A stretch of DNA of 64,000 nt from Gammaproteobacteria bacterium (GTDB lineage Bacteria; Pseudomonadota; Gammaproteobacteria; JABCZS01). Below are positions 48,016-49,611 of this stretch, one piece after another. The notes beneath the pieces are model-generated. The model worked only from the letters and a program-made list of their open reading frames with translations. It was not told where the DNA came from and ran no database searches. Location of the stretch: the NCBI GenBank assembly GCA_044445605.1, contig JBIOEA010000008.1:1217-65216 (forward strand). Reading direction: 5' to 3'. Every line of letters begins with the position of its first letter. The first letter of the stretch is position 1. A program made the translations under genes and the position numbers.

Positions 48016-49611
48016 ATGAACCCACAGAATTTAGCAACCGAGATGATCAAGCGTTTTAACATGCCTAAGGCGAATCCAGCGCTCCCTAGCAAGCTGCCGG
48101 ATCTTAATGACAGCGAGAGACTTGGCGCGCAACTCACTGAATACCTTAAGCTTTTAATCAAGCACGACCTTCTTAGAATTTCTTCCAGCCCGGAAGGGAA
48201 TATAAAATCTTGGTCTACAGAGGATGGTATTGGCTTATTGACAAACTACGGCATGCTCCCAGAGACTGAAAAGACAGAGCCAAAGAACCTTGAGCTTTCT
48301 CAGTTACGGTGTGCGTCCTCAGAATCAGAAGAAGCCGTAGAAATTCTCACCACGGTTATTCTCAAGCTCGCCGATCCAGGCATGTTCAATACTTTTTTTG
48401 TTAACAGTACATTTTCTAAGACAACCACCCTCATGACTGCCGGCCTGCTGTGCGCATTGGTCACGAGGATCAGCACGGGGATTGGGAACCATAGCCAAGA
48501 TGATAATTATGATATTACATCCTATATAAAAGCTTATAAGATGGCTTTTAAGACGACGATCGATCCAGAAAACTGGGGTACATGGGAAATGCGCATTTAC
48601 CAGCTATTCAATCTCATGAGGCCGGCTAACCCAGAGATTCTCGAGGGATTTAACGATTCACCTTCGCCATTCCATGATGCTCTTGACGATACAACTATTA
48701 ACGATGATGCCATTCTGGCAATGATTGAACAAGGGGCGCTCGTCAATGATGAAGACTCTTGTAGTGAAACACCTTTAAATCTGGCCATCACATGTGGTCG
48801 GGGAGAGGCGGTTATTACGATGCTATTAGATAAGGGCGCCAATATCAATACACGCGATAAGCATGGTGATGCCCCACTGCACCTTGCAATTCAATACAAA
48901 AAGCCTGAAATCGTCACACTGTTACTCAACCAAAAAGATATCAATGTTTCAATTTGGGATAGAGCCTTTCTCACGCCCATCTATTATGCTGCAAACAAAA
49001 ATCAACCGGACCTTGTGGCTCAACTTCTCAAACGCGGCATAATATTAAGCCAGAACGATATACATTACAACGATGAGAAAGGAAACACGCTCCTGCATGT
49101 ATCCATCGCACTTGGGATGGATGCACTCTCTTTCCTATTGATTGAAAAAGGGGCGAACTGCAATGCAATGACACATAAAGGCTACACACCACTGTGCATT
49201 GCAATATTGATGAAAAACCCAGACGTTGCCATTGCACTCATGGCTCATGGCGCAACGCTTTCATCTCAAGATGTACAGTATCAATTAGGCGATAAAAAAC
49301 TCACCCTCCTCCATCTGGCCGCAGACATGGGGCTAACAGATGCAATGCAACAAATGCTAAAACATGGCATGGACATAAGAGTTACCGACGAAAAAGGAAA
49401 CAATTCGCTGCATCATGCAGTCATGAGTAGGGTTAAAAAAACAAGTCTTGTACTTTTAAATGCACCGGGCATCGATGATGCTTTAAACCATCGTAACAAG
49501 AAAGGCAAAACGCCTCGAGAATATGCTGCAAAGGATATGGATATTGTTCACGATCCAGAACTCTTATCTAAATTCTTCACGGCCAAACAGAAAAAGAGCT
49601 GGCACAAATGA
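48016..49611 (+). CDS. ankyrin repeat protein, tandem paralog 1 (N-terminal unassigned conserved domain + C-terminal ankyrin repeats)
   Basis: 531 aa. Ankyrin modules GETPLNLAITCGRGEAVITMLLDKGANIN, GDAPLHLAIQYKKPEIVTLLLNQ and GYTPLCIAILMKNPDVAIALMAHGA. Residues about 70-205 share a conserved domain with the next two genes. Confidence 0.85.
   Translation: MNPQNLATEMIKRFNMPKANPALPSKLPDLNDSERLGAQLTEYLKLLIKHDLLRISSSPEGNIKSWSTEDGIGLLTNYGMLPETEKTEPKNLELSQLRCASSESEEAVEILTTVILKLADPGMFNTFFVNSTFSKTTTLMTAGLLCALVTRISTGIGNHSQDDNYDITSYIKAYKMAFKTTIDPENWGTWEMRIYQLFNLMRPANPEILEGFNDSPSPFHDALDDTTINDDAILAMIEQGALVNDEDSCSETPLNLAITCGRGEAVITMLLDKGANINTRDKHGDAPLHLAIQYKKPEIVTLLLNQKDINVSIWDRAFLTPIYYAANKNQPDLVAQLLKRGIILSQNDIHYNDEKGNTLLHVSIALGMDALSFLLIEKGANCNAMTHKGYTPLCIAILMKNPDVAIALMAHGATLSSQDVQYQLGDKKLTLLHLAADMGLTDAMQQMLKHGMDIRVTDEKGNNSLHHAVMSRVKKTSLVLLNAPGIDDALNHRNKKGKTPREYAAKDMDIVHDPELLSKFFTAKQKKSWHK

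What the first reader, a model, noticed from the sequence alone, without database searches (positions are those of the whole stretch)
48223..48640. Unassigned ~150-aa domain shared by all three paralogs (also 49926-50364 and 52180-52580)
Ankyrin paralog 1 aa ~70-205, paralog 2 aa ~80-225 and the third gene aa ~285-410 align with conserved positions K.R.TP.G...L.NY...QL.CAP.E..EV.EIL...L......NTF.....F.KT.I..T.G.LCAL...I....G.HS.D...I.TY..........T...RW..RI.....L..P. In the third protein the domain is C-terminal and has no ankyrin repeats, so it is a mobile module rather than part of the ankyrin scaffold. Two invariant Cys followed by an invariant His (H-S-x-D) would be compatible with a Cys-His hydrolase or transferase active site. 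That is speculation.
Basis: inference. Interest (0 to 1): 0.75.

Follow-up and report, generated by a model that had tools for sequence, protein, structure and literature searches.

The report
Rare helical effector module, possibly cyclin-like
Three neighbouring genes of an uncultured bacterium share a very rare, unannotated all-helical protein module, joined either to ankyrin repeats or to a eukaryotic lipid-anchor signal. It looks like a host-targeting binding module whose predicted fold resembles a cyclin box, not the Cys-His enzyme first suggested.

Summary
The shared domain is real. It matches nothing in Pfam, NCBIfam or PDB sequences. An exhaustive HMM search of 1.84 billion representative proteins found only 10 members, all singletons. 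Three more turned up on the same metagenome contigs.

The module is mobile. It occurs alone or after a homologous N-terminal copy, and is followed either by ankyrin repeats or by a flexible tail ending in a CaaX prenylation box. P3 ends in CKII, and 7 of 8 non-ankyrin members have a CaaX box.

The array lies in a variable site between tRNA-Tyr and dacA. That site is occupied in three related genomes and empty or differently filled in three others.

Cys1 and the His are each missing in 3 of 13 homologues, and the N-terminal copy keeps the Cys but lacks the His. The Cys-His enzyme idea is therefore not supported.

My best reading is a non-catalytic, cyclin-box-like host-binding module of translocated effectors.

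The parts
47684..47767 (-). tRNA-Tyr, left boundary of the variable site that holds the paralogue array
   Evidence: ARAGORN and Rfam. Synteny with L001, L002 and L004 stops here.
47922..48015 (+). Leader of P1, duplicated upstream of P2. It holds a promoter-like TTGACA-N18-CATCAT (47949-47978) overlapped by the inverted repeat TAGCTAA-N15-TTAGCTA.
   Evidence: About 90% identical to 49637-49730. Promoter-like scan.
48016..49611 (+). P1: shared module plus C-terminal ankyrin repeats (531 aa; NCBI MFI4956220.1)
48025..48636 (+). Shared module in P1 (aa 4-207). This covers the finding's interval 48223-48640.
   Evidence: Family HMM E 6e-70; alignments.
48298..48624 (+). Five-helix core of the module in P1 (aa 95-203). 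Cys1 at 48310-48312, invariant Cys2 at 48451-48453, His at 48490-48492.
   Evidence: Homology to the modelled core of P3.
48706..49515 (+). Ankyrin repeats of P1 (approximately aa 231-500)
   Evidence: Pfam Ank_2 E 7e-32.
49637..49730 (+). Duplicated leader of P2 with promoter-like TTGACA-N18-CATGAT (49664-49693). The listed ATG 49689 lies inside it.
49689..51344 (+). P2: shared module plus ankyrin repeats (551 aa as listed; 537 aa from ATG 49731)
49731..50348 (+). Shared module in P2. Cys1 at 50034-50036, Cys2 at 50175-50177, His at 50214-50216.
   Evidence: Family HMM E 4e-74; coordinates.
51350..52822 (+). P3 (490 aa; NCBI MFI4956222.1): N-terminal copy, ankyrin-like repeats, shared module and a CaaX tail
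51425..51790 (+). N-terminal five-helix copy in P3 (aa 26-147), with central helix 87-104 carrying the invariant C94
   Evidence: AF2 model. hhalign of the shared module against the N-domain: 86% probability, E 5e-6. Reciprocal HMM cross-hits.
51797..51973 (+). Degenerate ankyrin-like repeats in P3 (aa 150-208)
51971..52576 (+). Shared module in P3 (aa 208-409). This covers the finding's interval 52180-52580.
   Evidence: Family HMM E 3e-81.
52247..52576 (+). Five-helix core in P3: helices 308-323, 326-334, 347-361 (central, C351 = 52400-52402), 373-384 and 390-403. The H-S-x-D loop is at 362-372 (His 52442-52444).
   Evidence: AF2 pLDDT 80-90 in the helices and below 50 in the loop; hydrophobicity.
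52598..52807 (+). Flexible Pro/Gln-rich tail of P3. It ends in the polybasic stretch RGRRQQNR and an upstream Cys (C483).
52808..52819 (+). C-terminal CaaX box CKII of P3
   Evidence: Sequence. Cys at position -4 occurs in 7 of 8 non-ankyrin family members, against 3 of 114 ORFs of at least 100 aa in the window.
52843..54093 (+). dacA (D-Ala-D-Ala carboxypeptidase), right boundary of the variable site
   Evidence: Synteny.

Best explanation
The finding is a roughly 205-aa, all-alpha module that defines a very small, previously undescribed protein family. The family is confined to a narrow clade of uncultured Gammaproteobacteria. The core of the module (about 105 aa) is a five-helix bundle built around a uniformly hydrophobic central helix. 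The invariant Cys is one of the small core residues of that helix.

The ancestral architecture, kept in P3, has two homologous copies of this bundle, separated by degenerate ankyrin-like repeats and a helical linker. P1 and P2 keep only the second copy. The predicted fold resembles the cyclin box, the protein-binding fold of cyclins, p35/p25, TFIIB and ORC6.

The module is joined to parts that only make sense inside a eukaryotic cell: ankyrin repeats in P1 and P2, or a flexible polybasic tail ending in a CaaX prenylation box in P3.

Proposed mechanism (inferred, not shown). The proteins are translocated into a protist host. P3-type members are prenylated by host prenyltransferases and so tethered to a host or vacuolar membrane. 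P1/P2-type members dock through their ankyrin repeats. In both types the helical module acts as a non-catalytic binding surface for a host protein. The conserved alpha3-alpha4 loop (G-x-H-S/T-x-D) and the start of alpha5 (W-E/Q-x-R) form the likely contact face.

My confidence in each step: real mobile module about 0.97; action inside a host about 0.8; cyclin-box-like five-helix fold about 0.65; non-catalytic about 0.65.
For: The module is real and rare. Pairwise E is 1e-21. Only 10 hits with E below 1e-3 were found among 1.84e9 representative proteins, and all are singleton clusters. Three further members lie on the same contigs. Pfam, NCBIfam and PDB sequence searches found nothing.

The module is mobile. 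The architectures seen are N-copy + module + CaaX tail, N-copy + module + ankyrin repeats, module + ankyrin repeats, and short module + CaaX.

Host-directed features. P1 and P2 match Pfam ankyrin families at E 1e-32. CaaX boxes occur in 7 of 8 non-ankyrin members (CKII, CEIL, CVIL, CNFL, CALI, CNIL, CIQQ), often after polybasic runs or an extra Cys, against 3 of 114 window ORFs with Cys at position -4. Host prenylation of CaaX effectors is established for Legionella AnkB and the Pel proteins (PMC2916131, PMC13081727).

Islet behaviour. The array fills the tRNA-Tyr|dacA junction in the window, L081 and L086. The junction holds other cargo in L001 and L002 and essentially nothing in L004. dN/dS between P1 and P2 is about 0.6.

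Conservation. The invariant and near-invariant positions are core hydrophobics.
Against: No secretion system, host or translocation signal is visible in the 64 kb. The lineage has no cultured relative (RpoB at most 75% identical to any named taxon), so an intracellular lifestyle is inferred only from ankyrin and CaaX content.

Profile-profile comparison with a validated cyclin/TFIIB alignment gives below 1% probability.

The strongly conserved polar loop G-x-H-[ST]-x-D (10 of 13) and C-A-P-S-E (10 of 13) would also suit a catalytic or metal site.
Confidence: 0.5

Rival explanations
1. Cys-dependent enzyme. The invariant Cys, with the His/Asp of the G-x-H-S-x-D loop and possibly the first Cys or Glu of C-A-P-S-E, forms a catalytic or metal-binding site of a new hydrolase, transferase or ligase that acts on a host substrate. 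The members lacking the His would be inactive paralogues.
For: Cys2 is invariant in 13 of 13 members. His and Asp are present in 10 of 13, and two of the three exceptions (P0010 and the L086 short form) are truncated short forms; the third is the divergent P0009. The H-S-x-D motif sits in a loop that AF2 cannot place (pLDDT below 50), and conserved polar loops are often functional. Cys1 sits directly at the N-cap of helix 308-323. In P0009 Cys1 is replaced by His, another possible metal ligand.
Confidence: 0.15
2. True functional cyclin mimic. The module, alone or as a tandem pair, binds and activates or mis-localises a host cyclin-dependent kinase, for example a Pho85/CDK5/PCTAIRE-type kinase. 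The CaaX anchor would play the part that N-myristoylation plays in cyclin Y and p35.
Against: Pfam cyclin models do not match at E up to 10. hhalign against cyclins gives below 1%. By inspection, the conserved Lys/Glu pair of cyclins has no conserved counterpart: alpha3 ends in I/L-G and the alpha5 position varies among E, Q, H and K. The two boxes are about 160 residues apart, and P1 and P2 have only one box.
Confidence: 0.1
3. Membrane-inserting helical domain. The two moderately hydrophobic Cys-bearing helices are transmembrane or re-entrant segments that insert into host membranes after translocation.
For: The two Cys helices are the most hydrophobic 19-residue windows of the family proteins (Kyte-Doolittle 1.4-1.8). 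From general knowledge, not tested here, that is the range reported for transmembrane segments of translocated effectors.
Against: AF2 packs both helices confidently (pLDDT about 90) inside soluble bundles of amphipathic helices. The helices contain Q, S and T and are only 15-18 residues long. The CaaX anchor would be redundant. P1 and P2 are otherwise soluble ankyrin proteins.
Confidence: 0.07
4. Not an effector. The family has a bacterial-internal role, for example a regulator or scaffold, and the CaaX-like endings and ankyrin repeats are incidental.
For: No secretion system is seen in the window. The lineage is not demonstrably host-associated. The genes sit among housekeeping genes.
Against: A C-terminal Cys at position -4 with aliphatic residues recurs in 7 of 8 non-ankyrin members from at least five contigs. 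That is extremely unlikely without selection by eukaryotic prenyltransferases. Four ankyrin-repeat-related genes lie within 64 kb. The genes form a patchy, fast-evolving tandem array at a tRNA-flanked hot spot.
Confidence: 0.1

Closest known systems
Cyclin-box fold proteins (cyclin Y, Pho80/PCL cyclins, cyclin C, CDK5 activator p25, viral cyclins, TFIIB, ORC6)
   Different: There is no detectable sequence relation: Pfam gives nothing at E up to 10 and hhalign gives below 1%. No conserved counterpart of the cyclin Lys/Glu pair or the MRAIL patch was seen. The two boxes are separated by about 160 residues that include ankyrin-like repeats. P1 and P2 carry a single box. The proteins are bacterial.
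Legionella prenylated effectors (AnkB/LegAU13 and the Pel/CaaX-motif proteins)
   Same: Both are bacterial proteins with a C-terminal CaaX box, sometimes combined with ankyrin repeats, that are lipidated by host prenyltransferases and so anchored to the vacuole or host membranes (PMC2916131, PMC13081727). P3 and six homologues have such boxes with polybasic or Cys second signals.
   Different: There is no sequence homology to any Legionella protein, since the exhaustive search returned only 10 family members. The functional domain differs: F-box, RCC1 and others in Legionella, the new helical module here. Translocation and prenylation are untested. The host lineage is not Legionellales by RpoB.
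Ankyrin-repeat effectors of intracellular bacteria (Legionella, Coxiella and Rickettsia Ank proteins)
   Same: P1 and P2 combine an ankyrin array with a lineage-specific second domain. The genes form tandem paralogous, fast-evolving families.
   Different: The partner domain is new, and the ankyrin array is C-terminal to it.
Cys-His(-Asp) effector enzymes (papain-like, Cif, YopT or transglutaminase-type)
   Same: The window paralogues show a conserved Cys ... His-x-x-Asp sequence pattern.
   Different: Those enzymes have alpha/beta folds with an exposed Cys at a helix N-terminus and the His on a strand. Here the fold is all-alpha, the Cys lies in a buried central helix, and the His is not invariant.

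Membership tests
Cyclin-box fold superfamily | Five-helix bundle with a buried central third helix | tested here: met
Cyclin-box fold superfamily | Tandem duplication of the box | tested here: met
   hhalign of the shared module against the N-domain gives 86% probability, E 5e-6, over alpha3-alpha5, with reciprocal HMM cross-hits. This holds for P3-type proteins. P1 and P2 have one box.
Cyclin family (Pfam Cyclin_N, Cyclin_C, Cyclin/PHO80, TFIIB) | Sequence or profile match to the family models | tested here: not met
   hmmscan of all members at E up to 10 gives no cyclin or TFIIB family. hhalign against an 8-sequence cyclin/TFIIB alignment gives probability 0.4% and 0.2%.
Cyclin family | Conserved CDK-contact residues (Lys at the end of alpha3, Glu in alpha5) and the MRAIL hydrophobic patch | tested here: not met
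   By inspection of the alignments, alpha3 ends in I/L-G-x-H, the alpha5 position varies among E, Q, H and K, and there is no MRAIL-like motif in alpha1. The structural equivalence of positions could not be checked without coordinates.
Cyclin family | Binds and activates a CDK | not testable with these tools
   Needs binding and kinase assays or complex prediction.
   Cys2 is present in 13 of 13, Cys1 in 10 of 13 and His (with Asp) in 10 of 13. The homologous N-terminal copy has the Cys but no His.
Cys-His hydrolase/transferase | Known hydrolase or transferase fold with an exposed nucleophile | tested here: not met
CaaX-prenylated bacterial effectors | Cys at position -4 followed by two mostly aliphatic residues and a specificity residue at the C-terminus | tested here: met
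   The endings are P3 CKII, P0003 CEIL, P0004 CVIL, P0009 CNFL, P0010 CALI, the L081 partial gene CNIL and the L086 short gene CIQQ. P1 and P2 have none.
CaaX-prenylated bacterial effectors | Second membrane signal (polybasic stretch or upstream Cys) | tested here: met
   P3 has RGRRQQNRCGDR before CKII, P0010 has KKK, the L081 partial gene has RKK and P0009 has CC.
CaaX-prenylated bacterial effectors | Translocation into the host and lipidation by host FTase or GGTase | not testable with these tools
   No secretion-system genes lie in the 64-kb window. This needs reporter translocation and prenylation assays.
Ankyrin-repeat proteins | Match to Pfam ankyrin models above the gathering score | tested here: met
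   P1 matches Ank_2 at E 7e-32 and P2 at E 1.8e-32. P3 is below threshold on its own, but its family profile matches ankyrin repeats at E 4e-6.

The most novel reading that the evidence does not exclude
The family would be the first bacterial cyclin-box effector. It would be a tandem or single cyclin-like module delivered into a protist host and tethered to membranes by host prenylation (P3 type) or by ankyrin repeats (P1/P2 type). There it would capture or activate a host cyclin-dependent kinase of the Pho85/CDK5/PCTAIRE type. This mimics membrane-anchored cyclins such as cyclin Y or p35 and so re-programmes host cell-cycle or trafficking signalling.
Probability: 0.1. Interest if true: 0.85.

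Novelty: new variant of a known kind. Interest (0 to 1): 0.6.

Why it matters
Ankyrin repeats and CaaX boxes mark bacterial proteins that work inside eukaryotic cells. Here they flag a domain with no relatives in any curated family and only about 13 known copies, all in an uncultured gammaproteobacterial clade.

If the predicted cyclin-box-like fold holds, this would be a new way for bacteria to copy a eukaryotic protein-binding scaffold. My literature searches found no bacterial precedent.

The finding also gives a concrete, testable entry point into the host interaction of a lineage known only from metagenomes: a CaaX-dependent localisation assay and identification of the binding partner. 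Finally, it corrects a tempting mis-annotation, since 'invariant Cys plus His' here does not mean a protease.

Tried and rejected
- Word-indexed homologue search with the three-paralogue alignment found nothing, although the proteins are in the collection. The exhaustive HMM search was needed instead.
- Pattern scan of GTDB genomes with the module found no relatives. tblastn of the module against 80 dacA-containing loci found nothing.
- A metagenome scan recovered only the contig of P0004. The first attempt failed because the 11-sequence alignment was too diverse to search with.
- AF2 with only the three window paralogues gave pLDDT 37 and was unusable.
- Foldseek against the PDB (best E 0.7) and against BFVD (best E 0.27) gave only generic helical proteins such as SNAPs and TPR/Rap, which I rejected as noise. 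afdb50 was not available.
- Profile searches of the PDB and Pfam with the shared-module alignment gave nothing. A single CagD hit (E 6e-4, 1 of 11 members) was disregarded as isolated.
- hhalign against cyclins was negative.
- The exact-protein look-up of P3 with the GTG start failed because the recorded product starts at ATG 51350.
- I considered and rejected a transmembrane reading of the Cys helices, a disulfide or zinc site between the two Cys (untestable without coordinates), and a relation of the L083 upstream paralogues (426 and 442 aa) to the family (no HMM hit).
- The duplicated leader element was not found in any related locus.
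Full report
**1. What is in the sequence**

The interval lies in the first of three co-oriented genes:
- P1, 48016-49611 (531 aa)
- P2, 49689-51344 (551 aa as listed)
- P3, 51350-52822 (490 aa)

They sit between a tRNA-Tyr/Gly/Thr-tuf cluster on the minus strand and dacA-dat-lipB-lipA on the plus strand. The window is a contig of an NCBI MAG labelled 'Gammaproteobacteria bacterium'. P1 is MFI4956220.1 ('ankyrin repeat domain-containing protein') and P3 is MFI4956222.1 ('hypothetical protein').

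P1 vs P3 are 32% identical over 178 residues, E 1e-21. A family HMM shows that the shared region is about 205 aa: P1 aa 4-207, P2 aa 15-220 and P3 aa 208-409.

P1 and P2 carry strong C-terminal ankyrin repeats (Pfam E about 1e-32). P3 has no Pfam hit. The module itself has no match in Pfam, NCBIfam or PDB sequences, whether searched as a single sequence or as a profile.

**2. How rare it is and where else it occurs**

A word-indexed search and a scan of GTDB genomes found nothing. An exhaustive hmmsearch of 1.84 billion representative proteins found only 10 proteins with E below 1e-3. Two of them are P1 and P3 themselves. All ten are singleton clusters, each seen on one or two metagenome contigs (contig look-ups).

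Fetching those contigs showed that the homologues also lie in tandem arrays, and it added three more members:
- L081 reads [partial member ending CNIL]-P0006-P0003-P0010-dacA.
- L086 reads [ankyrin-type member]-P0004-[short member ending CIQQ]-dacA-dat-lipB-lipA, at 82% nucleotide identity to the window over dacA..lipA.
- L083 reads P0007-P0005.
- P0009 stands alone among housekeeping genes.

The closest genomes by dacA, rpoC and tuf are L001 and L002, at about 80% nucleotide identity. They are collinear with the window on both sides but lack the array. Their tRNA-Tyr-to-dacA gap is about 0.9-1.2 kb, against 5.08 kb here. It holds an unrelated 171-aa ORF in L001 and a PIN/AbrB toxin-antitoxin pair in L002. 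L004 has a gap of only about 200 bp. The three genes are therefore cargo of a variable, tRNA-flanked hot spot in a narrow clade.

RpoB is 90% identical to that of L001's MAG, about 80% to a few metagenome contigs and at most 75% to any named taxon. The lineage is deep and uncultured.

**3. Architecture of the family**

Eight members have an extra N-terminal domain of about 200 aa before the module. The module is then followed either by ankyrin repeats (P1, P2, P0006, P0007, P0008 and the first L086 gene) or by a low-complexity tail.

Seven of the eight tail-type members end in a CaaX box:

| Member | Ending |
|---|---|
| P3 | CKII |
| P0003 | CEIL |
| P0004 | CVIL |
| P0009 | CNFL |
| P0010 | CALI |
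| L081 partial gene | CNIL |
| L086 short gene | CIQQ |

The box is usually preceded by basic residues or another Cys; P3 ends RGRRQQNRCGDRCKII. In the window, only 3 of 114 ORFs of at least 100 aa have Cys at position -4, and P3 is the only evident gene among them.

Bacteria have no CaaX prenyltransferases. In Legionella, such boxes on AnkB and the Pel effectors are lipidated by the host and anchor the proteins to the vacuole (PMC2916131, PMC13081727). Together with the ankyrin fusions, a further ankyrin gene at 12571-14334 and a dN/dS of about 0.6 between P1 and P2, this points to proteins that act inside a eukaryotic host. That is an inference. No secretion system is visible in the window.

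**4. Internal duplication**

The N-terminal domain and the module share a motif: L-C-x-L-x-x-Q-I-x-x-x-x-G, then Y...F, then W..R..LL. Three results support homology:
- hhalign of the two family alignments gives 86% probability, E 5e-6, over module positions 133-194 against N-domain positions 86-148.
- The two HMMs cross-hit reciprocally and collinearly, with i-E values of 4e-4 to 3e-2.
- BLASTP of P1 against P3 also finds the N-terminal copy.

The last 55 or so positions of the N-domain profile match ankyrin repeats (1n0r, E 4e-6). P3 therefore reads: copy 1, degenerate ankyrin-like repeats, helical linker, conserved extended motif (IKPRTTPGLIxLKNY), copy 2, tail, CaaX.

**5. Structure**

AF2 with the three window sequences alone failed (pLDDT 37). 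With the 11-sequence family alignment, P3 aa 1-418 gave pLDDT 80.9 and pTM 0.76, and the model is entirely helical.

Each copy is a set of five helices:
- Copy 1: 26-45, 53-74, 87-104, 115-125, 135-147.
- Copy 2: 308-323, 326-334, 347-361, 373-384, 390-403.

The third helix of each set carries the invariant Cys (C94 and C351). It is the most hydrophobic segment of the protein and has the lowest hydrophobic moment of its set (0.14-0.15, against 0.13-0.57 for the other eight helices). That is the signature of a buried central helix. The H-S-x-D motif lies in the alpha3-alpha4 loop, which has pLDDT below 50.

- cyclins A, B, D, E and F, viral cyclins, Pcl10, p25, ORC6, TFIIB and Brf1

The remainder are PPR, TRPM-MHR, dynein and ankyrin domains.

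The cyclin box is precisely a five-helix bundle around a hydrophobic third helix, duplicated in tandem, and it is a protein-binding scaffold rather than an enzyme. The match is at fold level only. Pfam cyclin and TFIIB models do not hit any member.

**6. The Cys-His hypothesis**

Across 13 homologues only Cys2 is invariant. Cys1 is lost in P0008, P0009 and the L086 ankyrin-type gene. The His and Asp are lost in P0009, P0010 and the L086 short gene. The N-terminal copy conserves the Cys but has no His.

The other invariant or near-invariant positions are L, F, L, L, G, F and W, plus one Glu. This is a core-packing pattern. By recollection, cyclins C, H and D and TFIIB also have a Cys in their central helix, which fits a structural role for a small residue.

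The enzyme reading is thus not supported, but it is not excluded. The polar loop G-x-H-[ST]-x-D and the helix N-cap C-A-P-S-E are conserved in 10 of 13 members and probably mark a functional surface. I give the enzyme rival 0.15.

**7. Most likely mechanism**

- Shown: a mobile helical module that is duplicated in P3-type proteins, fused to ankyrin repeats or CaaX tails, and located in a patchy islet.
- Inferred: the proteins are translocated effectors. P3-type proteins are prenylated by the host and tethered to membranes. P1/P2-type proteins dock through their ankyrin repeats. The module binds a host protein through the alpha3-alpha4 loop and alpha5 face.
- Speculative (0.1): the partner is a host CDK, which would make this a membrane-tethered cyclin mimic.

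**8. Novelty and score**

Prenylated and ankyrin-bearing effectors are a known kind. The module is a new family with a predicted fold not reported for bacterial effectors in the literature I could search. I rate it a new variant of a known kind, with interest 0.6. All functional statements remain computational.

Noticed in passing
window 47922-48015 and 49637-49730: The leaders of P1 and P2 are about 90% identical, although the coding regions have diverged (dS 0.3-0.7). They hold a TTGACA-N18-CATCAT/CATGAT promoter-like site overlapped by a perfect 7-bp inverted repeat, TAGCTAA-N15-TTAGCTA. This is probably a conserved promoter/operator. The element was not found in any related locus.
   Followed up: partly
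window 49689-49731: The listed ATG of P2 (49689) lies inside the duplicated leader. A 1-nt indel relative to P1 removes the in-frame TAA. The start homologous to P1's is ATG 49731, which would give a 537-aa product.
   Followed up: partly
window 47767-52843; L001 9117-10001; L002 8872-9980; L004 164-366: The tRNA-Tyr|dacA junction is a variable hot spot. It holds the paralogue array here and in L081 and L086, an unrelated 171-aa ORF in L001, a PIN + AbrB-type toxin-antitoxin pair in L002, and almost nothing in L004.
   Followed up: yes
window 12571-14334 (-) and 14449-17325 (-): There is a further 587-aa ankyrin-repeat protein. Next to it is a 958-aa ORF whose only Pfam match is a partial Asp/Glu racemase domain. 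Neither contains the shared module.
   Followed up: partly
window 9319-10617 (+) and 56607-57281 (+): These are ORFs of 432 and 224 aa without any Pfam match.
   Followed up: no
L083 296-1576 and 1573-2901: Two tandem paralogues (426 and 442 aa, 48% identical, no Pfam hit) lie directly upstream of the family members P0007 and P0005. They are unrelated to the module by HMM and may be another lineage-specific effector-like family.
   Followed up: partly
C-termini of P1 (49540-49608), P2 (51285-51341), P0006 and P0007: Ankyrin-type members share a C-terminal motif L-[SK]-K-F-[FY]-x(1,2)-K followed by basic residues (LSKFFTAKQKK, LKKFYPTKQ). It could be a translocation or membrane-binding signal. 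P2 ends in ...KNKKC.
   Followed up: no
just after the module: P1 aa ~208-212 (48637-48651), P3 aa ~416-423, and homologues: Most members have a D/E-x-F motif directly after the module, often DPF (P0003, P0006, P0007 and the first L086 gene).
   Followed up: no
P3 aa 276-292 (52175-52225); P1 aa 63-78: The motif I-K-P-R-T-T-P-G-L-I-x-L-K-N-Y precedes the five-helix core. It is conserved, but AF2 leaves it unstructured (pLDDT below 50 for aa 281-301). It may be a linear motif or a segment that orders only on binding.
   Followed up: no
(tool behaviour): The word-indexed homologue search returned no hit for the family alignment, although P1, P3 and eight homologues are representatives in the same collection. 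A negative from that tool was misleading for this family.
   Followed up: yes
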